From a virus, in IMG/VR virus record IMGVR_UViG_3300020185_000011: 64,000 bases of DNA; one strand, given 5' to 3'. A program made the translations under genes and the position numbers. The notes below the pieces were generated by a model. The model was not told the origin of the DNA. It saw only the letters and a program-made list of their open reading frames with translations, and ran no database searches. Shown one piece after another: positions 19,142 to 56,790 of this stretch. The number at the start of each line of letters is the position of its first letter. The stretch's first letter is position 1.

Positions 19142-20446
19142 ATGTTTTTATCAGAAAACTTACAAGAAAAGTGGGAGCCGATTCTAGAACACTCCGATTT
19201 ACCAAAAATCGAAGACAACTACAAGCGTGCTGTTACTGCTGTTATTCTTGAAAACCAAGAGAAGGCCCTTTTCGAAGAGCAAGGAAACTTGGAAGAAGCA
19301 GCACCTTTAAATGCTACTGGAAGCGCGGTTGCAAACTGGAATCCTATTTTGATTTCATTAGTAAGACGTGCTATGCCAAATCTCGTTGCATACGACATTT
19401 GTGGTGTTCAACCAATGACAGGCCCAACTGGACTTATCTTTGCTATGAAAGCAAGATATAACGATGATACTGACGCCGATAGAGCTGCAAAATCAGAAGC
19501 ACTTCATAACGAAGCAAGAACTGATTACTCTGCATCTCCTCAAGGAACAGGTACTTCACTAGGTTCAGACCCAATAGGTGACCCTTTCGACACATCATCT
19601 CCTTCATACGCATCCACTACAAGTGGTGGTATGAGTACTGCTTCTGCTGAAGCATTAGGTGATGGAGCAGGAAATCACTTTGCAGAGATGGCATTCTCAA
19701 TCGAGAAAGCTACTGTCACTGCTAAATCCAGAGCATTAAAAGCTGAGTACACACTCGAACTTGCACAAGACCTCAAAGCAATCCACGGTCTTGACGCAGA
19801 ATCAGAACTTGCAAATATTCTTTCATCAGAAATTCTTGCAGAAATCAACCGTGAAGTTATCAGAAATGTTAACTTACAAGCAAAAACTGGTGCAGCTTCA
19901 ACAGCTTCAGCAGGTACTTTCAACCTAGACGTTGATGCTAACGGTAGATGGTCTGTTGAGAAATTCAAAGGATTATTGTTCCAAATCGAAAGAGAATCAA
20001 ACTTCATCGCTAAAGATACACGTAGAGGAAAAGGTAACTTTATCCTATGTTCATCTGATGTAGCTTCTGCTCTTTCAATGGCAGGTGTATTAGATTACAC
20101 TCCTGCTCTTAACACAAACTTAAACGTTGACGATACTGGTAATACTTTTGCTGGTCTTCTAAACGGAAGAGTTAAAGTATATGTTGACCCATATGCTGGT
20201 GTTGACTACTTAACAGTAGGTTATAGAGGAACTAACCCTTATGATGCTGGTCTTTTCTATTGCCCATACGTTCCATTACAAATGGTTCGTGCAGTAGGTG
20301 AGAACACATTCCAACCAAAAATCGGTTTCAAAACTAGATATGGTATGGTTTCAAATCCATTCGTAGGTGCTACACCTGCTGACGGACTTGCATCCGCTGG
20401 AACTAACCAGTACTACAGAAAGATGGCAGTGTCTAACATTCTGTAA
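19142..20446 (+). CDS. gp23: Major capsid protein
   Basis: GVQPMTGPTGLIFAM, ELAQDLKAIHGLDAE, FQPKIGFKTRYG. Confidence 0.97.
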   Translation: MFLSENLQEKWEPILEHSDLPKIEDNYKRAVTAVILENQEKALFEEQGNLEEAAPLNATGSAVANWNPILISLVRRAMPNLVAYDICGVQPMTGPTGLIFAMKARYNDDTDADRAAKSEALHNEARTDYSASPQGTGTSLGSDPIGDPFDTSSPSYASTTSGGMSTASAEALGDGAGNHFAEMAFSIEKATVTAKSRALKAEYTLELAQDLKAIHGLDAESELANILSSEILAEINREVIRNVNLQAKTGAASTASAGTFNLDVDANGRWSVEKFKGLLFQIERESNFIAKDTRRGKGNFILCSSDVASALSMAGVLDYTPALNTNLNVDDTGNTFAGLLNGRVKVYVDPYAGVDYLTVGYRGTNPYDAGLFYCPYVPLQMVRAVGENTFQPKIGFKTRYGMVSNPFVGATPADGLASAGTNQYYRKMAVSNIL

Positions 20447-20480
20447 GGAACTTAGGTTCTCATTCCTTAATTGGAATACT

Positions 20481-20508
20481 AAAACCCCTCTCACGAGGGG
20501 TTTTTTTT
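20481..20508. terminator. Bidirectional intrinsic terminator
   Basis: AAAA-CCCCTC-TCAC-GAGGGG-TTTTTTTT. Confidence 0.85.
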
Positions 20509-20796
20509 AGCATGACTGAATCGTTCAATGTCTTGGGTATGACCCCAATTCTTTACACCGTGTCCTTCTAGTGGGGCCTTACCCCAATTTTATTAAGGTC
20601 AATAGGTAGTGACCATACGGAAGTTCGTTTACCACACCATTCCAATTTGTCAGAAATTTCAAGTGCTTCTCTGTTCGGATTCTATCCACACCTCACGATT
20701 ATATGCCACGTCTTAATTGACTTTAACAGTGTGGAACACCTTGTCTATACGGAACAACCTCTCACAACCATCTAACTTCCGTCTCGACTTCCTACC
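20481..20796 (-). ncRNA. Putative structured non-coding RNA (~300 nt), family unrecognised
   Basis: No ORF on either strand; own promoters on the minus strand; several helices; ends at the bidirectional terminator. Confidence 0.6.
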
Positions 20797-20801
20797 TTAC
20801 A

Positions 20802-20845
20802 AGTATACCAAAATATGATATCCATTGTCAAGGCACATATTTATA
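20802..20845 (-). promoter_or_regulatory. Tandem early (GCCTTGACA-N18-TATACT) and late (TATAAATA) promoters firing into the ncRNA
   Basis: -35 at 20826-20831, -10 at 20802-20807, TATAAATA at 20838-20845, all on the minus strand. Confidence 0.75.
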
Positions 20846-20861
20846 CGCGATAAATAAGTAT

Positions 20862-21659
20862 ATGAAGATGATTAAGTATGGTGAGGGGTTGGAAGGTTTC
20901 TTTAAATGGAAGAATCCAATCACAGATGACGAACACACAATGTACCTTCCAACGGAAGCAAGAGTTAAAAAGGTTATCGATTGTAAAGGTGAAGACTGGT
21001 TTGATGGTAAGACTATCCTAGAACTAGGAACTGCACATGGATTGATTGGTAGACACTTTGAGAAGTTGGGTGCAACTGTAAGTTATGCAGATGCTAGACA
21101 AGAACTACTGGATTCCATAGAAACAGACTCAGAAAAGTTATGTATCAATCATAATGACGAATGGTCTTTCAATAGAAAGTGGGATTTGATTATACACTTT
21201 GGTACTCTATATCATGTTAAAAACATCTATGATGATTTGAGAAGAGCATTTAATCATACGGATGAAATGTTCTTAGAGACTGCAGTCAATTCATTACCAA
21301 TGCCAGCACCATGGTTTAGACAAGAAGAGTGGTCGGGTGTACATGGAGCTCCAGGCGAAAAGAAGAAGAAAAATTCTAGAGTCTTTAATGGGTTCGACCA
21401 GTGGGAAGCTTCATTTAATGATACACATGTAGAAGAATACTTAGACGAGATAGGTAAGACCTACACAAGATATGATGATGAAGATTTGGATAATGAATTT
21501 GGTATAATCATACCTAACGAAGTCTACAGAAGAGACGTGTATAGTTGGACACTAGAAGATGTACACCCTAAGAATCCTATGGAACCAGTTAAGTTTGCAT
21601 CAATACCACCAAATTATGTTCACTTCCGTAGGTTCTGGCATATCAAAACACCTAAATAA
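20862..21659 (+). CDS. Class I SAM-dependent methyltransferase
   Basis: ILELGTAHG motif I, acidic residue after strand 2 (YADAR), WDLIIHFGTLYH. Confidence 0.75.
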   Translation: MKMIKYGEGLEGFFKWKNPITDDEHTMYLPTEARVKKVIDCKGEDWFDGKTILELGTAHGLIGRHFEKLGATVSYADARQELLDSIETDSEKLCINHNDEWSFNRKWDLIIHFGTLYHVKNIYDDLRRAFNHTDEMFLETAVNSLPMPAPWFRQEEWSGVHGAPGEKKKKNSRVFNGFDQWEASFNDTHVEEYLDEIGKTYTRYDDEDLDNEFGIIIPNEVYRRDVYSWTLEDVHPKNPMEPVKFASIPPNYVHFRRFWHIKTPK

Positions 21660-21677
21660 GTATATACGGAGAACAAT

Positions 21678-21896
21678 ATGTCAAATTATGAAAAGAGTGT
21701 ACAAGTTTTAGAGGGCCCATGGGAAGCAAAAATATTTCCACAAGGTCGAGAGAACACAAATGTAATCTCTAGAAAAACTGTAACCACTTATATCCAAGAA
21801 GGATATCTATGTGAGGAAACTACAACAAGAGAGTATAGGGGTGACGATTATCACGACATCACTACTAACAAACGGATAACAAGAGTCCATGGCTGA
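21678..21896 (+). CDS. Hypothetical protein
   Basis: GGAG SD and late box upstream; overlaps the next gene. Confidence 0.6.
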   Translation: MSNYEKSVQVLEGPWEAKIFPQGRENTNVISRKTVTTYIQEGYLCEETTTREYRGDDYHDITTNKRITRVHG

Positions 21897-22425
21897 CATC
21901 AATAAATCCCTTCTCAATAAGAACAACTTTAGACTTCTTATTGATAGGATACCAACTGCAGAATACTTTGTCAAGAAGTGTAATATTCCAGGCGTGTCAT
22001 TCTCAGAATTAGCACATGGTGCTGGGGTTGGGTTGGATGCATATTTTCCAGGCGACAAAGTTACATTTGAAAATCTATCTGTAGACTTCTTGGTGGATGA
22101 AGACCTAGAGAACTTCAAAGAAGTGTACGAATGGATGAATGCAATTGTACCAATTAAAGACCCTAAAGATTATGAGACCTATGTTGGTACCAGTAGAAAT
22201 CTAATAGGAACGTCTTCGGATAAGGGAGATGCAGGCTCAGAAGTATCTGATATCACTCTTATTACAACAACAAACAAAAACATACCCAATAGATACTTTA
22301 GATTTCATGACTGCTTTCCAATCGGTCTAAGTGGATTAGAGTTTGAATCGGGTGCAGATGGTGAATCTGTGGTTGCAACTATTGAGTTTAAATTTACTTA
22401 CTACGACATAGAAACCACTAGTTAG
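21889..22425 (+). CDS. Tail completion/tube terminator (gp3-like)
   Basis: NIPGVSF, FLVDEDLENFKEVYEWM, FHDCFPIGLSGLEF; tube-protein-like fold; position before uvsY. Confidence 0.7.
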   Translation: MADINKSLLNKNNFRLLIDRIPTAEYFVKKCNIPGVSFSELAHGAGVGLDAYFPGDKVTFENLSVDFLVDEDLENFKEVYEWMNAIVPIKDPKDYETYVGTSRNLIGTSSDKGDAGSEVSDITLITTTNKNIPNRYFRFHDCFPIGLSGLEFESGADGESVVATIEFKFTYYDIETTS

Positions 22426-31102: not shown

Positions 31103-31720
31103 ATGTACCAATTGATAGAAGAAGCCTCAAAGGTGTTAAGAACACCACCCCTCGTATTTGATTTCGAAAATCGTACCGATGCTGAAGAGATTGAAAAATC
31201 TTTAACAGAAGCAATGGAAAAGTTTGGTGGAATCGGTCTAAGTGCAAACCAAGTAGGATTGGATGCAAGAGTTTTTGTAATGAAATCTCAAGACCAAGGG
31301 ATAGTTGCATTTTTTAATCCCGAAATAACAAAGGTATCACAAGAGACCGACTTGATGAAAGAAGGATGCTTATCGTTTCCCGATATATACCTTATGATAA
31401 AACGTGCAAAGTTGATTGAGTTGAAGTATCAGAACGCACAAGGTGAAGATAAAGTGGTCAGTCTAGAAGGTCTTGCCTCTAGATGTGTCCAACATGAAGT
31501 TGACCATCTAAATGGTATCATCTTCCTACAACGTGCATCTAAATTGAAGTTAGATAGAGCATTGAAGTCACGTCCCAAAGAACGTGCAAAGAGAATAGAA
31601 TATGAAAAACGACAAGCATTTGCAAAGTACATCCAAAACAGTGCTGCAGCCAATAGTGATTCCCAACCTTCTGAGTCAGAAGGACAGTCTGAATCTGATA
31701 AACTATCATCTACAGCATAA
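31103..31720 (+). CDS. def: Peptide deformylase
   Basis: GIGLSANQVG, EGCLS, QHEVDHLNG. Confidence 0.95.
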   Translation: MYQLIEEASKVLRTPPLVFDFENRTDAEEIEKSLTEAMEKFGGIGLSANQVGLDARVFVMKSQDQGIVAFFNPEITKVSQETDLMKEGCLSFPDIYLMIKRAKLIELKYQNAQGEDKVVSLEGLASRCVQHEVDHLNGIIFLQRASKLKLDRALKSRPKERAKRIEYEKRQAFAKYIQNSAAANSDSQPSESEGQSESDKLSSTA

Positions 31721-32273
31721 ACATTTAAGAACAGTTGGTGACGGTTCTGATTATCGTGCTATAGACTTTTGTCACATAAAGACTCCATGGGTTCGTGATA
31801 TCTTTAGACGTTCTGCACAGGTCTGTACATCCCACATCTTTAAAGAAACAGGACAACATTTCTATCCCGAAATGTTAGCACTCAATGAATGGGACATAGG
31901 TGGGGTTCAGAACCCACACTTTGATACCTATTCCAACTCAGAAATCAATGAGAATGCTGTTCCCGAAGAGGGAAACTCTAGGGAATGGACGTGTATTCTG
32001 TATCTAAATGACAATTATAACGGTGGACAGACCTATTTTCCACCCAGTGAGACCTTCCCAGTTGGCCATGAGCATCCCCCACAGGCCGGTGAGGGACTTC
32101 TTTTTCAAGGACTATACCTTGAACATGGGGTTTATCCAGTAAGAAGAGGCCCAAGACACACCATATCCATGTGGTTTACAGACATCGAAGATAAGATTAT
32201 CATCGATACACCCATCAATCTAGACCAAAACCAACACCAAATCCAAAGAGAAAACTCCTACATCCCCCGCTAA
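31602..32273 (+). CDS. 2OG-Fe(II) oxygenase, prolyl 4-hydroxylase-like (start uncertain)
   Basis: HFD, LYLNDNYNGG, HGV, RHTISMW. Confidence 0.8.
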   Translation: MKNDKHLQSTSKTVLQPIVIPNLLSQKDSLNLINYHLQHKHLRTVGDGSDYRAIDFCHIKTPWVRDIFRRSAQVCTSHIFKETGQHFYPEMLALNEWDIGGVQNPHFDTYSNSEINENAVPEEGNSREWTCILYLNDNYNGGQTYFPPSETFPVGHEHPPQAGEGLLFQGLYLEHGVYPVRRGPRHTISMWFTDIEDKIIIDTPINLDQNQHQIQRENSYIPR

Positions 32274-32277
32274 TCGT

Positions 32278-32310
32278 GCCTTGACAATGCCCTAAGCTTT
32301 TTGATATACT
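32278..32310 (+). promoter_or_regulatory. Early sigma70-type promoter
   Basis: GCCTTGACA-N18-TATACT; near-identical copies at 32525-32557 and 35226-35258. Confidence 0.8.
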
Positions 32311-32338
32311 ATGTGTATATTATGAAAAAGGATGAGGG

Positions 32339-32524
32339 ATGAAGTACCTAAAAGAGATTACGGACTGGACTGAGTCGAAGTCTACAGTTCCAAACCATAC
32401 TTACATAGTCAACGATGCTGGACAACTAGTTGGATACATCAAGACTGGAACCAAAGAAGAAATCATCTTCAAATCTCCAATGAAACAATTCTCTAAATCA
32501 AGGAGAAAATTTATTACGCTCTAG
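32339..32524 (+). CDS. Small early hypothetical protein
   Basis: Lies between two early promoters; GAGG SD. Confidence 0.6.
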   Translation: MKYLKEITDWTESKSTVPNHTYIVNDAGQLVGYIKTGTKEEIIFKSPMKQFSKSRRKFITL

Positions 32525-32563
32525 GCCTTGACAATGCCATGCAGCTAATGATAGCATATACTT

Positions 32564-34960
32564 ATGACTGAGACAAAAAGAAACCAAAAAGACCAACTTG
32601 CCAAACTAATGGCAACCGAGAACATTACTATTGTTCATAAACCAATACCAACTGCATACTTCGATGTAAAGAATAGGATACTTGCTTGTCCTACTTTCAA
32701 AGATGATATCAGTGACGAACTTTATGACTTGTTCATGGGTCACGAAGTTGGACATGCATTGAATACACCTTACGAGGGACTTCATAATGCATTGACTAAA
32801 AACAAAACACTCAAAGGATATCTCAACGTTGTTGAAGATGTCAGAATTGAGAAAGCAATCAAAAACAAATTCCAAGGATTGAGAAAATCTTTCTACACTG
32901 CATACAATGAGTTGATGGAAAAAGATTTCTTTGGTCTTAAAGGTAAAGACTTAAACACACTTTCTTGTATTGATAAAATCAACTTGATTACTAAGTGTGG
33001 TTCTAGGGTTCAAATTGAGTTGACCGACCAAGAGCAGAAGTTCTTGGACATGGCAGAAGCCTGTGTCACTTGGGAAGACGTTGAAGTTTGTGCTGAAGAA
33101 ATTTACAACTGGTCAAAAGAAAATGAGACTAGGGATGAGAGTGACGAAGCAATCGTTCCTAAAATGTTTCAACTTGATGATGAAGACCTTGAAGATGAAG
33201 ACATGGAAGGTGAAGATTCAGATGGTGGTGAAGAGTATGAAGATAATTACGAAGATGGTTCTTCAGACGAAGACGATTCAGAAGATGATGAAGACAAACT
33301 TCCCGAAGCACCCGAGTATGGTGAGGGCAACCAAGACATAGAAGGTGACGAAGACGAAGTAGAAGAAGAAGAGAAGTCTGAGAAAAAAACTACTGGAACT
33401 TCTAAAGAAGGTGGTGTTGCAAGTCCCGAAGATTACGATGGTGAAAATGGTGCTAGAGAATCTATCACTGAACACCATGCACATAACAACGAAGAAATGT
33501 TCCTTGAAGATAGCCCTGCTTGGAGAGAGCAAATCAATCTAAGAGATACTTTCAAGAACAACGATATGGATATTATTATTGGTCACAACCAAGTGTTATC
33601 AGACTGGAAAAAATACTTCAACGAGTATGCTAAGAACAACACTTCAAAAGAATTTGAACACAACATGTCAAAAATCCAGTTCACTGCCAAGAAACTTATT
33701 GACAAGAACAAGAAGATTGTTGCTCACATGGTTAAAGAATTCGAAATGAAGCAGACTGCACAAAGAAGTGTTAAAGCTTTCAGTGGTAAAACTGGTAAGT
33801 TGGATATGAACAAACTTGCAAAGTACCAAATCGTTGATGATGTTTTCAAGAGAGTTACTTACTTGCCTGATGGACAGAATCACGGTCTGAATGTTTTACT
33901 TGACTGGAGTGGTTCAATTTCAAACAGTTGTGCTGAGTTACTGGAACAAGCAATTATCCTTTCAGAGTTCTGCAGAAAAGCAAACATCCCTCACAGAGTT
34001 TACCTTTTCTCTGATGCATATCAGAGAGGTGAGTGGAGTTCAATGGGTGACGAAGGTTTCCTAGTTGAATTGTTCTCTAACGAAATGAACAACAAGAAGT
34101 ACAAAGAAATGATGGTGAATGTTGCAGCTCTATGGATGTGTCACTTCCTAGGAAAACTAGGTTGGAGAGGTAGTGAGAAAACTGCAAAGGCTCACAATAC
34201 ATTCTATGACTGGGACAGTGGTTTTGCAATTGACCACATTGACCAACCTTACTTTTGGTTCGATACCGATATCAGACCAATGCAGTATAGACTTGGTGGT
34301 ACACCACTTGACCATTGTTTGATTGCCTTGAGAAAAATACTTCCCGAGTTCAACAGTGCTTACGGAGTTGAGAAGTCAATCTTAACAGTTATCACAGATG
34401 GATTCTCACATGGAAGTCCTTGGTTGAGAAGAGATAGTGATGAAAAGTATGCTTGGTGTAAAGAGCAAGGTATTGACGCTTGGGACGTTCAGACTGTCGA
34501 AGAAATCATTGACCCTTTCTCAAACAAAGTATTTGAATACAGTGGTGCAACAAGCCACAGAGGAAGATATTACAACGCTTCTAATTTCAAGAAGACTCAG
34601 AACTTATTGTCATGGTTGTCTAAGACTTGTAACGTCACTGTGACTGGTTACTTTGTTTTAGACAAGAAGAGAGATATGGGTGACCTTATGGGATTCACTT
34701 CTTTAAAAGATACATGGTGGGATAACGACAGACAAATCTGGGCTGAGATTAGAAAGAATGGATTGGTTGTTGACTGTCACGGCTACAACAAAATGTTTTT
34801 GACTGCAACTTCTTCACTTGGTGTTGATGGTTCAGACGAATTAGATGATGATTTGGTTGATGCCAAAAAGTCAAGAGTGTTGGCTGCTTTCAAAAAGAAT
34901 CAGAAAGCAAAAACAACTTCAAGGTTTTTAACAAATGAGTTTATAAAGGAGATATCATGA
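32564..34960 (+). CDS. HEXXH metallopeptidase-like + acidic linker + vWA protein (CobT-like partner)
   Basis: HEVGH, NVVEDVRIE, D/E-rich linker, MIDAS DWSGS, GGTPL, VITDG. Confidence 0.8.
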   Translation: MTETKRNQKDQLAKLMATENITIVHKPIPTAYFDVKNRILACPTFKDDISDELYDLFMGHEVGHALNTPYEGLHNALTKNKTLKGYLNVVEDVRIEKAIKNKFQGLRKSFYTAYNELMEKDFFGLKGKDLNTLSCIDKINLITKCGSRVQIELTDQEQKFLDMAEACVTWEDVEVCAEEIYNWSKENETRDESDEAIVPKMFQLDDEDLEDEDMEGEDSDGGEEYEDNYEDGSSDEDDSEDDEDKLPEAPEYGEGNQDIEGDEDEVEEEEKSEKKTTGTSKEGGVASPEDYDGENGARESITEHHAHNNEEMFLEDSPAWREQINLRDTFKNNDMDIIIGHNQVLSDWKKYFNEYAKNNTSKEFEHNMSKIQFTAKKLIDKNKKIVAHMVKEFEMKQTAQRSVKAFSGKTGKLDMNKLAKYQIVDDVFKRVTYLPDGQNHGLNVLLDWSGSISNSCAELLEQAIILSEFCRKANIPHRVYLFSDAYQRGEWSSMGDEGFLVELFSNEMNNKKYKEMMVNVAALWMCHFLGKLGWRGSEKTAKAHNTFYDWDSGFAIDHIDQPYFWFDTDIRPMQYRLGGTPLDHCLIALRKILPEFNSAYGVEKSILTVITDGFSHGSPWLRRDSDEKYAWCKEQGIDAWDVQTVEEIIDPFSNKVFEYSGATSHRGRYYNASNFKKTQNLLSWLSKTCNVTVTGYFVLDKKRDMGDLMGFTSLKDTWWDNDRQIWAEIRKNGLVVDCHGYNKMFLTATSSLGVDGSDELDDDLVDAKKSRVLAAFKKNQKAKTTSRFLTNEFIKEIS

Positions 34961-56367: not shown

Positions 56368-56790
56368 ATGGCATACTCAAAAGAAGTAGTTCAAAGATTT
56401 GAAGCAGTACTTGCAAACCCCGAAAAACATTCCGTAGGTCGATTAGACAAAGACGACCCACATGTTGCAACAGGTCTTGCAGGCGCACCCGCCTGTGGTG
56501 ATGTAATGCAATTACAACTATTACTGGACGATGATGAAAGAATCATTGACGTAAAGTTTAAAACCTATGGATGTGGAAGTGCAATTGCAAGTTCGTCCAT
56601 GTTTGTTGATATGATGATGGGTAAGACTATCGAAGAAGCTAAACTAATTAAGGATAAGGACATCGCTGATGCGTTAGACCTTCCGCCGATTAAACTTCAT
56701 TGTTCTGTTCTTGCTGAAGACGCAATCAAAAAGGCAATGATTGATTACGACACCAAGTTGGAACATCGCAGACACAACTATCCTAAATAG
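56368..56790 (+). CDS. iscU: Fe-S cluster scaffold
   Basis: GAPACGDVM, FKTYGCGSAIASSS, LPPIKLHCSVLAEDAI. Confidence 0.95.
   Translation: MAYSKEVVQRFEAVLANPEKHSVGRLDKDDPHVATGLAGAPACGDVMQLQLLLDDDERIIDVKFKTYGCGSAIASSSMFVDMMMGKTIEEAKLIKDKDIADALDLPPIKLHCSVLAEDAIKKAMIDYDTKLEHRRHNYPK

What the first reader, a model, noticed from the sequence alone, without database searches (positions are those of the whole stretch)
20481..20845. Antisense structured ncRNA behind the major capsid gene with both early and late promoters
Seen: this is the only clear minus-strand transcription unit in the window. It has a copy of the phage early promoter (GCCTTGACAATG..N18..TATACT, as at 32278, 32525 and 35226), a perfect TATAAATA late box, about 300 nt without an ORF, and a bidirectional terminator. 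Helices: 9-bp 20617-20625/20774-20782, with a second GGAAGU copy at 20787-20792 that could compete; 7-bp 20685-20691/20729-20735; hairpin 20597-20614 whose loop is complementary to 20792-20797 (possible pseudoknot to the 5' end); twin hairpins 20533-20548 and 20572-20586, each carrying AAUUGGGGU. It lacks tRNA, tmRNA or RNase P hallmarks that I can recognise. Inference: an RNA expressed throughout infection, possibly a protein sponge, ribozyme or structural RNA.
Basis: partly seen in the sequence, partly recalled or inferred. Interest (0 to 1): 0.75.

Follow-up and report, generated by a model that had tools for sequence, protein, structure and literature searches.

The report
New tRNA-linked structured RNA of marine phages
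The stretch behind the capsid gene encodes a roughly 300-base folded non-coding RNA that belongs to a previously undescribed family found in about a hundred uncultured marine T4-like phage contigs, often joined to tRNA genes; its fold is well supported but its function is unknown.

Summary
Window 20478-20800 (minus strand) is a self-contained gene for a structured non-coding RNA of about 300 nt. It has its own sigma-70 promoter and ends at the bidirectional terminator it shares with gp23.

- **Insert:** the 337-bp block 20510-20846 is a clean presence/absence insert among close relatives.
- **Family size:** homologues occur in about 95 IMG/VR contigs and 42 metagenome contigs (overlapping sets), roughly 60 distinct sequences.
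- **Selection:** RNA identity to the window averages 90.6%, against 67.5% at gp23 third codon positions.
- **Fold:** 11 helices plus one pseudoknot. Cells paired: 98.8%, against 33-49% in slid controls. Pairs with compensatory changes: 11 of 68 in the close clade and 40 of 64 once divergent clades are added.
- **Strand:** G.U pairs fix the minus strand. No ORF is conserved.
- **No known family:** nothing in Rfam 15, including RNase P, ROOL, GOLLD, tRNA and tmRNA. It is absent from T4, Melnitz, HTVC008M and Mosig.
- **tRNA link:** in a sister clade the RNA lies sense to gp23, directly after a tRNA-Asp, under an invariant late promoter. Other lineages place it next to other tRNAs.

It is therefore a movable trans-acting RNA gene, not a gp23 antisense regulator. 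First readers of this scan flagged the same RNA in another genome.

The parts
20510..20846 (-). Presence/absence insert (RNA cassette: promoter plus RNA body) between the gp23 terminator and the methyltransferase leader
   Evidence: The empty site in L082-L092 reads terminator-T8-G/GCGATAAATA. The filled site is in the window and in L093-type loci. There is 2-bp GC microhomology and no terminal inverted repeats.
20838..20845 (-). TATAAATA late-type box upstream of the early promoter
   Evidence: It is the only minus-strand copy of 10 in the window. It is kept only in the methyltransferase-linked copies. It forms an inverted repeat with the plus-strand GATAAATA of the methyltransferase. The sister clade uses an invariant TATAAATA ahead of tRNA-Asp-RNA.
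20802..20831 (-). Sigma-70-type early promoter (-35 at 20831-20826, TGn extended -10, -10 at 20807-20802); the inferred start is near 20795
   Evidence: The consensus scan gives 11 of 12 matches. It is the same motif as the plus-strand early promoters. Across 26 distinct copies TTGACAAT is 26/26 and TATACT 25-26/26, while the spacer varies in sequence (11-20/26) at constant length and the upstream DNA is unrelated.
20478..20800 (-). The RNA gene as matched by the family covariance model (core 20510-20796)
   Evidence: R1 scores 371 bits, E 9e-101, and this is the only hit in the window. Alignments A2, A3 and A5 cover it.
20619..20792 (-). H1 (20792-20785 with 20627-19), closing a four-way junction domain
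   Evidence: 100% paired in 39 variants. Column pair 13/179 is A-U in 26 and G-C in 13. Five of 8 pairs are compensated once divergent clades are added.
20749..20782 (-). H2 (20782-20777 with 20754-20749) with a 22-nt apical loop carrying the family-wide motif UAG[AU]UGGUUG
   Evidence: Invariant in the close clade. The stem is compensated in L401, L405 and the tRNA-Asp clade while the loop motif is kept.
20677..20740 (-). H3-H4-H5 arm (20740-39/20678-77; 20735-28/20692-85; 20727-19/20712-05) with the invariant hairpin GUC-AAUUAA-GAC
   Evidence: Column pair 72/110 is C-G or A-U. Seven of 8 H4 pairs are compensated in A5. An independent MAFFT + RNAalifold run recovers the arm.
20634..20666 (-). 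H6-H7 arm (20666-62/20638-34; 20658-54/20648-44); this is the variable patch
   Evidence: Column pairs 136/166 and 137/165 are compensated. All 5 H6 pairs are compensated in A5. RNAalifold recovers the arm on the independent alignment.
20597..20614 (-). H8 hairpin; its loop 20608-20605 forms a pseudoknot
   Evidence: Column pairs 191/204 and 192/203 are compensated.
20556..20559 (-). 3' strand of the pseudoknot with the H8 loop
   Evidence: Column pair 195/247 is A-U in 33 sequences and G-C in 5. Column pair 196/246 is C-G in 31 and G-C in 7. The two changes are in two separate clades.
20572..20586 (-). H9 hairpin (absent in L122 and in the tRNA-Asp clade)
   Evidence: Column pairs 219/231 and 221/229 are compensated. 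Column pair 220/230 runs G-C to G.U to A-U.
20513..20548 (-). H10 (20548-44/20537-33) and H11 (about 20532-20513)
   Evidence: Column pair 257/270 is A-U in 23 sequences and U-A in 16. H11 is the weakest helix, 77-96% paired.
20481..20504 (.). Bidirectional intrinsic terminator shared by gp23 (plus strand) and the RNA (minus strand)
   Evidence: The stem has a T run on the plus strand and a U4 run on the minus strand. The stem sequence covaries among phages: CCCCTC, GGTCTC, GGACTC, GGGGTC.

Best explanation
**What it is (shown)**
- The region is an autonomous gene for a structured non-coding RNA of about 300 nt. It belongs to a new family carried by uncultured marine T4-like (Kyanoviridae-like) phages.
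- In this phage the host RNA polymerase should start at a strong sigma-70 early promoter on the minus strand, near 20795. It should stop at the bidirectional terminator shared with gp23, near 20481, before reaching the gp23 coding region.
- The RNA folds into a four-way-junction 5' domain (H1-H7) and a 3' domain of hairpins (H8-H11). A pseudoknot ties the H8 loop to the H9/H10 linker. Long invariant unpaired blocks are kept across the family.
- The cassette is accessory and movable. Closest relatives lack it. Other lineages carry it in the sense orientation after gp23, fused to the 3' CCA of a tRNA-Asp under a late promoter. Others place it next to tRNA-Ala/Ser, tRNA-Cys or tRNA-Glu.

**How it works (inferred)**
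- It acts in trans through its folded shape. It would bind a protein or another RNA of the translation/tRNA sphere, or assemble on its own, like the phage RNAs ROOL and GOLLD.
- It does not act by antisense pairing with gp23.
- Where it is fused to a tRNA, it is released by the tRNA-processing enzymes.

I put about 0.9 on 'real structured trans-acting RNA gene family' and about 0.3 on the specific mode of action.
For: **The unit**
- Promoter, terminator and absence of a conserved ORF.
- Homology among copies begins exactly at the -35 box. The spacer varies in sequence but not in length, and both hexamers are invariant.
- The insert has exact boundaries.
- It is single-copy in RNA-positive genomes and absent from RNA-negative relatives.

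**Selection**
- Mean RNA identity to the window is 90.6%. gp23 is 82.2% at the nucleotide level and 67.5% at third codon positions.

**Structure**
- A2: 99.1% of cells paired, 9 compensated pairs, 0 of 500 shuffles reach the observed values; slid controls give 33-50% paired and 0-1 compensated pairs.
- A3 with the pseudoknot: 98.8% paired, 11 compensated pairs.
- Divergent clades added (model-fitted A5): 96.4% paired, 40 of 64 pairs compensated, covariation score 0.418 against 0.03-0.08 in slid controls.
- An independent MAFFT + RNAalifold run on 15 diverse members recovers H3-H6, H8 and H10, with 19 compensated pairs.

**Strand**
- 361 G.U cells. Pairing falls to 85.2% if the plus strand is read.

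**Trans action and mobility**
- L401/L403 carry the RNA in the sense orientation between the 2OG-oxygenase and the 798-aa gene, with its own promoter.
- L404/L405 carry it inside a tRNA cluster.
- In 21 of 24 contigs of a sister clade the RNA abuts tRNA-Asp-CCA. TATAAATA is invariant in 20 of 20 loci despite three unrelated upstream flanks.
- L433 has a tRNA-Glu directly after the RNA.
- The same site in L099-type phages holds a protein-coding early cassette.
Against: - There are no expression data. The transcript ends are inferred from promoter and terminator motifs only.
- The fold of the single sequence is no more stable than shuffled sequence (z -0.08).
- The widest alignment (A5) is fitted to the model, so its counts lean towards that structure. 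MAFFT misaligns H1 and H2 in the divergent clade.
- H11 is weak (77-96% paired).
- The pseudoknot rests on two compensated pairs and is not evident in the tRNA-Asp clade.
- No partner, target or activity was found, so the mode of action is an analogy.
- Recombination could inflate the apparent conservation, but it would not create compensatory changes.
Confidence: 0.85

Rival explanations
1. It is a new ribozyme, self-cleaving or acting on tRNA or RNA. The conserved unpaired blocks would form an active site.
For: The size, the multi-helix junction, the pseudoknot and many invariant unpaired nucleotides are typical of catalytic RNAs. The tRNA linkage would fit an RNA-processing activity. There are short colinear resemblances to RNase P conserved regions (noted).
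Against: No Rfam ribozyme or RNase P model scores even at E 10. The RNase P-like words are 6-8-mers, which is within chance. The CR-I-like word lies in helix H1 and is replaced in the tRNA-Asp clade. No activity could be tested.
Confidence: 0.12
2. It is a decoy or counter-defence RNA. It would mimic a host RNA, or titrate a host protein such as a tRNA-targeting nuclease or a global RNA-binding protein, early in infection.
For: The RNA is accessory and patchy in distribution. It has an early promoter. It sits in a hypervariable site that in other phages holds a PNKP-type phosphatase cassette, an RNA-repair type of gene. It is linked to tRNA genes.
Against: Inspection of the sequence shows no tRNA-like arm and no array of repeated GGA loops. 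ARAGORN finds nothing. In the sister clade the RNA is driven by a late promoter, which is late for a first-line counter-defence. The host is unknown.
Confidence: 0.15
3. It is a cis-antisense regulator of gp23. Convergent transcription, or pairing of the overlapping terminator ends, would control capsid mRNA.
For: The position and orientation in this window fit. The two transcripts share about 25-30 complementary bases at the terminator.
Against: The RNA ends about 35 nt beyond the gp23 stop codon. The conserved part is the structured body, not the overlap, and the terminator sequence varies freely. The same RNA occurs in the sense orientation relative to gp23 or far from it. Close relatives do without it.
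Confidence: 0.04
4. It is a DNA-level element (replication origin with primer RNA, packaging site or recombination hotspot), or a decaying remnant of a gene or mobile element.
For: It is an intergenic insert with indel polymorphism. T4 origins combine a promoter with a downstream element (my own knowledge).
Against: The pairing is strand-specific with G.U pairs. Forty pairs are compensated. The region evolves far more slowly than neutral sites. There is no GC-skew turn at the locus, no terminal repeats and no conserved reading frame.
Confidence: 0.03
5. It encodes a small protein: the GTG-started frame of 31-36 codons, or the 13-codon ORF noted in another genome.
For: A 31-36-codon frame is open in most close copies. 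First readers noted a 13-codon ORF elsewhere.
Against: The frame has no ATG and no usable Shine-Dalgarno spacing, and it lies inside helices H4-H8. A 1-nt indel breaks it in L112-type copies. The 13-codon ORF has no start codon in the window. The changes are compensatory for pairing, not synonymous.
Confidence: 0.02

Closest known systems
ROOL and GOLLD RNAs (Rfam families; large ornate RNAs of phages and prophages)
   Same: Both are phage-encoded and multi-helix with pseudoknots. They are 'often near tRNA islands', have no known protein partner and no known function (PMC12286853, read). This RNA is likewise tRNA-linked in several lineages.
   Different: There is no sequence or structure match to either Rfam model. 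This RNA is much smaller (about 290 nt against about 580 and over 800). It is restricted to marine T4-like phages. Self-assembly is untested.
T4 stable RNAs C and D (species 1 and 2) of the T4 tRNA gene cluster (my own knowledge)
   Same: Both are small stable RNAs of unknown function. Both are co-transcribed with, and processed from, tRNA precursors in a T4-type phage. This matches the tRNA-Asp-RNA and RNA-tRNA-Glu arrangements seen here.
   Different: The family model finds nothing in the T4 genome. The T4 RNAs are about 120-140 nt. In the window's clade the RNA has its own promoter and terminator and lies far from the tRNAs.
Phage 'morons' (promoter-gene-terminator cassettes inserted between conserved genes)
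   Same: The unit is an independently transcribed accessory unit, inserted cleanly between two genes and present or absent among close relatives. The same site holds a protein-coding cassette with the same promoter in other phages.
   Different: The cargo is a structured RNA, not a protein. It borrows the neighbouring gene's bidirectional terminator.
phi29 prohead (packaging) RNA
   Same: Both are phage-encoded structured RNAs made from an early promoter. Short loop pairings in pRNA covary among relatives (my own knowledge). Here the H8-loop pairing covaries and could in principle be intermolecular.
   Different: T4-type packaging motors need no RNA. This RNA is dispensable among close relatives. 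There is no similarity by Rfam. This is an analogy only.

Membership tests
Any Rfam 15 family | Covariance-model score at or above the family's gathering threshold | tested here: not met
   There are 0 hits in the whole window at gathering thresholds. At E up to 10 on 301-701 nt the only hits are terminator-like matches of 12-27 bits. The divergent member L401 behaves the same.
RNase P RNA | Match to a bacterial, archaeal or minimal RNase P model, with invariant CR-I and CR-V forming P4 | tested here: not met
   No RNase P model scores at E up to 10. The CR-I-like word AGGAAAUC lies in H1 and is replaced by other pairing bases in the tRNA-Asp clade. The topology differs. Catalysis was not testable.
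tRNA / tmRNA | Cloverleaf or tRNA-like domain detected by ARAGORN | tested here: not met
   ARAGORN finds none in the window. In relatives the tRNAs lie beside the RNA, not inside it.
ROOL / GOLLD | Match to the Rfam models RF03087 / RF01998 (accession numbers from memory) | tested here: not met
   No hit. The resemblance is in context only.
T4 tRNA-cluster stable RNAs C/D | Homology to the T4 genes | tested here: not met
   R1 searched against NC_000866 gives no match at E up to 1. R1 does detect members down to 70 bits.
Independent bacterial-type sRNA gene | Own sigma-70 promoter, discrete non-coding body, intrinsic terminator | tested here: met
   Transcription itself was not observed.
Structured RNA family (comparative definition) | Helices maintained by compensatory changes beyond controls | tested here: met
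   R-scape-type statistics were not available.
Moron-type accessory cassette | Precise insertion between conserved genes, with empty sites in close relatives | tested here: met
   All four combinations of RNA present/absent and methyltransferase present/absent occur.
cis-antisense RNA | Transcript overlaps the coding or regulatory region of the opposite-strand gene | tested here: not met
   The terminator lies about 35 nt beyond the gp23 stop. The orientation is reversed in the sister clade.

The most novel reading that the evidence does not exclude
The RNA is a new functional class tied to tRNA biology. It could be a compact ribozyme, or an RNA-only or ribonucleoprotein device. Marine T4-like phages would deploy it on tRNAs, the ribosome or a tRNA-targeting host defence. 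It would be released from tRNA precursors by the host processing enzymes, and it has been re-wired in evolution between early, late and tRNA-fused expression.
Probability: 0.2. Interest if true: 0.9.

Novelty: new variant of a known kind. Interest (0 to 1): 0.72.

Why it matters
- **Rarity.** Large RNAs with complex folds and many invariant unpaired nucleotides are rare. Historically they have turned out to be ribozymes or core ribonucleoprotein parts.
- **A tractable example.** This one sits in T4-like phages of the surface ocean. It has a well-defined fold, a clean natural presence/absence polymorphism, and several expression designs: its own early promoter, a late promoter with a tRNA fusion, or embedding in a tRNA cluster.
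- **A link to an open question.** It adds a compact, and therefore tractable, member to the unexplained group of tRNA-island RNAs of phages (ROOL, GOLLD, T4 RNAs C and D). That group poses a long-standing open question about what phages do with such RNAs.
- **Practical use.** The alignment and model could seed an Rfam family and improve the annotation of marine viromes.

Tried and rejected
- **Rfam.** Scans at gathering and at E up to 10 gave only terminator look-alikes.
- **Named phages.** blastn against 50,697 records found no match for the window RNA or for L433. For L423 only the tRNA-Asp part matched.
- **Family model on other DNA.** R1 found nothing in 76 gp23 loci of relatives, in Melnitz, HTVC008M and Mosig, or in T4.
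- **Bacterial genomes.** A 17-mer scan gave 21 chance hits. None fits the model, so there is no host clue.
- **Antisense targets.** The best match in the phage's own genome is 13 nt at E 0.56, which is chance level.
- **Partner gene by co-occurrence.** Three RNA-positive genomes were compared with two RNA-negative ones. This yielded five tiny ORFs with no Pfam or PHROG family, which is uninformative, and the records are incomplete.
- **Origin of replication.** There is no GC-skew turn at the locus.
- **Mobile-element ends.** There are no terminal inverted repeats.
- **RNase P resemblance.** This was rejected as chance (see membership test).
- **Dimerisation through a GGCC palindrome in the H8 loop of the tRNA-Asp clade.** Five of 18 sequences have GACC, and there is no covarying partner.
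Neither is conserved.
- **Catalogue of about 10,000 viral structured-RNA candidates (PMC10690425).** Its models are 29-151 nt, so at most fragments could overlap this RNA. Its supplements are not held, so this could not be checked.
- **Literature.** Word searches found no description of this RNA.

Full report
**Setting.** The window comes from an uncultured marine T4-like phage. Its gp23 (19142-20446) is 67% identical to that of Methylophilales phage Melnitz and 65% to that of Pelagibacter phage HTVC008M. The record is 146 kb. All plausible genes in the window are on the plus strand. The finding lies in the 415-bp gap between gp23 and a 265-aa methyltransferase (20862-21659).

**The sequence features.** It reads TTGACA-N18-TATACT with a TGn extension, 11 of 12 matches. 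Its -35 block is the same as in three plus-strand early promoters of the phage. TATAAATA at 20838-20845 is the only minus-strand copy among ten. The terminator stem at 20481-20504 is followed by a run of T on the plus strand and by U4 on the minus strand. Rfam and ARAGORN find nothing.

**The region is an insert.**
- Relatives whose methyltransferase is 86-94% identical (L082-L092) go straight from the gp23 terminator to the methyltransferase leader.
- The window and the L093-type loci carry an extra 337 bp (20510-20846) between the same flanks.
- The junction has 2 bp of microhomology and no terminal repeats.
- The RNA block and the methyltransferase assort independently; all four combinations exist.
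- In L099-type phages the same site holds a minus-strand cassette with the same early promoter. There it drives a 148-aa PNKP-type phosphatase. The site is therefore a hotspot for small, independently transcribed accessory cassettes.

**The family.** Exact-word scans of IMG/VR and of JGI metagenomes, checked with nhmmer and a covariance model, gave 66 + 6 + 24 viral contigs and 42 metagenome contigs (overlapping sets).

In the window's own clade there are 39 distinct sequences. The element always follows gp23 in the antisense orientation.
- Homology starts exactly at the -35 box.
- TTGACAAT and TATACT are invariant in 25-26 of 26 copies.
- The spacer changes in sequence but not in length, and the DNA upstream is unrelated. 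This is the signature of a working promoter.
- The shared terminator varies in sequence but keeps its stem.
- The RNA averages 90.6% identity to the window. gp23 is 82.2% identical at the nucleotide level and 67.5% at third codon positions. Neighbouring proteins fall to 40-60%.
- The RNA is single-copy where present, and absent from the whole records of RNA-negative relatives.

**Structure.**
- RNAalifold on a MAFFT alignment of 31 variants gave 64 pairs in 11 helices.
- Counting on that alignment: 99.1% of cells are paired and 9 pairs are compensated. No shuffle in 500 reaches these values. Slid controls give 33-50% paired and 0-1 compensated pairs.
- An all-against-all scan then showed that the H8 loop (20608-20605) pairs with 20559-20556. 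Two independent compensations support this: A-U to G-C in five sequences, and C-G to G-C in seven.
- Adding divergent clades (model-fitted alignment A5) raises the compensated pairs to 40 of 64, with 96.4% of cells paired.
- A model-free MAFFT + RNAalifold run on 15 diverse members recovers H3-H6, H8 and H10, with 19 compensated pairs.
- G.U pairs make up 361 cells. On the opposite strand pairing drops to 85.2%. The functional molecule is therefore the minus-strand RNA.
- No reading frame is conserved.

The 7-bp helix, the 20597-20614 hairpin and the twin hairpins are right. The 9-bp helix is only the minimum-energy choice for this one sequence. It fails across the family (84% paired, no compensation). 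The upstream GGAAGU copy is the true partner (H1). The proposed 5' pseudoknot also fails. Fold energy alone would not have flagged the region (z -0.08).

**The wider family changes the interpretation.**
- L401/L403 carry the RNA in the sense orientation, between homologues of window genes 31602-32273 and 32564-34960. It has its own TTGACA/TATAAT promoter and no terminator, and lies about 500 nt after tRNA-Ala and tRNA-Ser.
- L404/L405 place it inside a tRNA cluster.
- A sister clade of 24 contigs (19 distinct sequences, gp23 about 65% identical) has it after gp23 but in the same orientation as gp23. In 21 of the 24 contigs it starts immediately after the encoded CCA of a tRNA-Asp; two of the other three (L417, L435) run off the contig end and the third (L438) has no tRNA upstream.
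- In that clade an invariant TATAAATA lies 5 nt before the tRNA in 20 of 20 loci, despite three unrelated upstream flanks.
- In L433 a tRNA-Glu follows the RNA directly.
- L122 is a chimera of the two clades' 5' and 3' domains.
- Blocks conserved throughout: UAG[AU]UGGUUG in the H2 loop, the GUC-AAUUAA-GAC hairpin with GUGGCAUAU, CGAACA, UUGGGA, AAACGA, UAUGGU, CCUAGAUAAAA, GUGUAA and AGACAUUGAAC.

**Interpretation.**
- *Shown:* this is a conserved, strand-specific, compensation-supported RNA fold. It is carried on a movable cassette whose expression signals have been exchanged: its own early promoter, a late promoter with a tRNA fusion, or a tRNA cluster.
- *Consequence:* these contexts rule out a role tied to gp23 antisense pairing. 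They point to a trans-acting RNA.
- *Inferred:* it works through its shape. The recurrent tRNA linkage means either shared maturation by tRNA-processing enzymes or a function in the tRNA and translation sphere.
- *Rivals I cannot separate with these tools:* a ribozyme, a decoy or counter-defence RNA, and an RNA-only assembly.
- *Expression timing:* the late box next to the early promoter in the window is not conserved within its clade. Late expression is nevertheless the rule in the sister clade, so expression in both phases is plausible here but unproven.

**Comparison with known RNAs.** No Rfam family matches. ROOL and GOLLD are the nearest analogues by context: phage RNAs near tRNA islands with unknown function (PMC12286853). 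The stable RNAs C and D of the T4 tRNA cluster are similar in arrangement (my own knowledge). The family model finds nothing in T4 or in the cultured relatives. A catalogue of about 10,000 short viral RNA candidates (PMC10690425) may contain fragments. I could not check this.

**Prior notes in this scan.** First readers noted the same RNA in another genome. None of those notes had been followed up.

**Limits.**
- There are no transcript data.
- The host is unknown.
- The widest alignment is fitted to the model.
- The pseudoknot and H11 are the weakest parts of the fold.
- The function is unresolved.

Noticed in passing
L099:2486-2971 (also L101, L103, L104): At the same site as the window's RNA cassette, these phages carry a minus-strand cassette with the same early promoter. 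It drives a 148-aa HAD_PNKP (polynucleotide kinase-phosphatase type) phosphatase and ends at the shared gp23 terminator.
   Followed up: partly
window 20862-21659: The 265-aa methyltransferase gene is itself a presence/absence insert between gp23 and the 72-aa ORF. It assorts independently of the RNA cassette.
   Followed up: partly
L113, L117, L118, L136, L155, L157, L164 (e.g. L117:4547-4640): An extra block of about 57 nt (GAAGGAAAGGATAATAAGGCATGATTCGG...) lies between the RNA body and the terminator in some copies. Its nature is unknown.
   Followed up: no
L122:1285-1583 and L138: The RNA is chimeric. Its 5' domain is of the window's clade. Its 3' domain (H8 loop AAGGCCGAAA, no H9) is of the tRNA-Asp clade. 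This is evidence for recombination between RNA variants.
   Followed up: partly
L423:60-170 and 19 other loci: An invariant T4-type late promoter TATAAATA lies 5 nt upstream of a phage tRNA-Asp(GTC) with an encoded CCA. The anticodon stem of the tRNA covaries among phages. The next gene is a NifU/IscU-like Fe-S scaffold, homologous to window 56368-56790.
   Followed up: partly
window 20835-20859: An inverted repeat is formed by back-to-back late-type boxes: minus-strand TATAAATA and plus-strand GATAAATA ahead of the methyltransferase. It may be a divergent late promoter pair.
   Followed up: no
window 32279-32563: Two copies of the early promoter flank an ORF of about 60 aa. In L401/L403 the equivalent intergenic site carries the RNA gene.
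   Followed up: partly
window 21889-22425: The 178-aa ORF after the 72-aa ORF is tail-tube-like (PHROG 45, E 1e-29; weak Pfam gp19 match). In Mosig the gene in this position is annotated as a tail tube protein.
   Followed up: no
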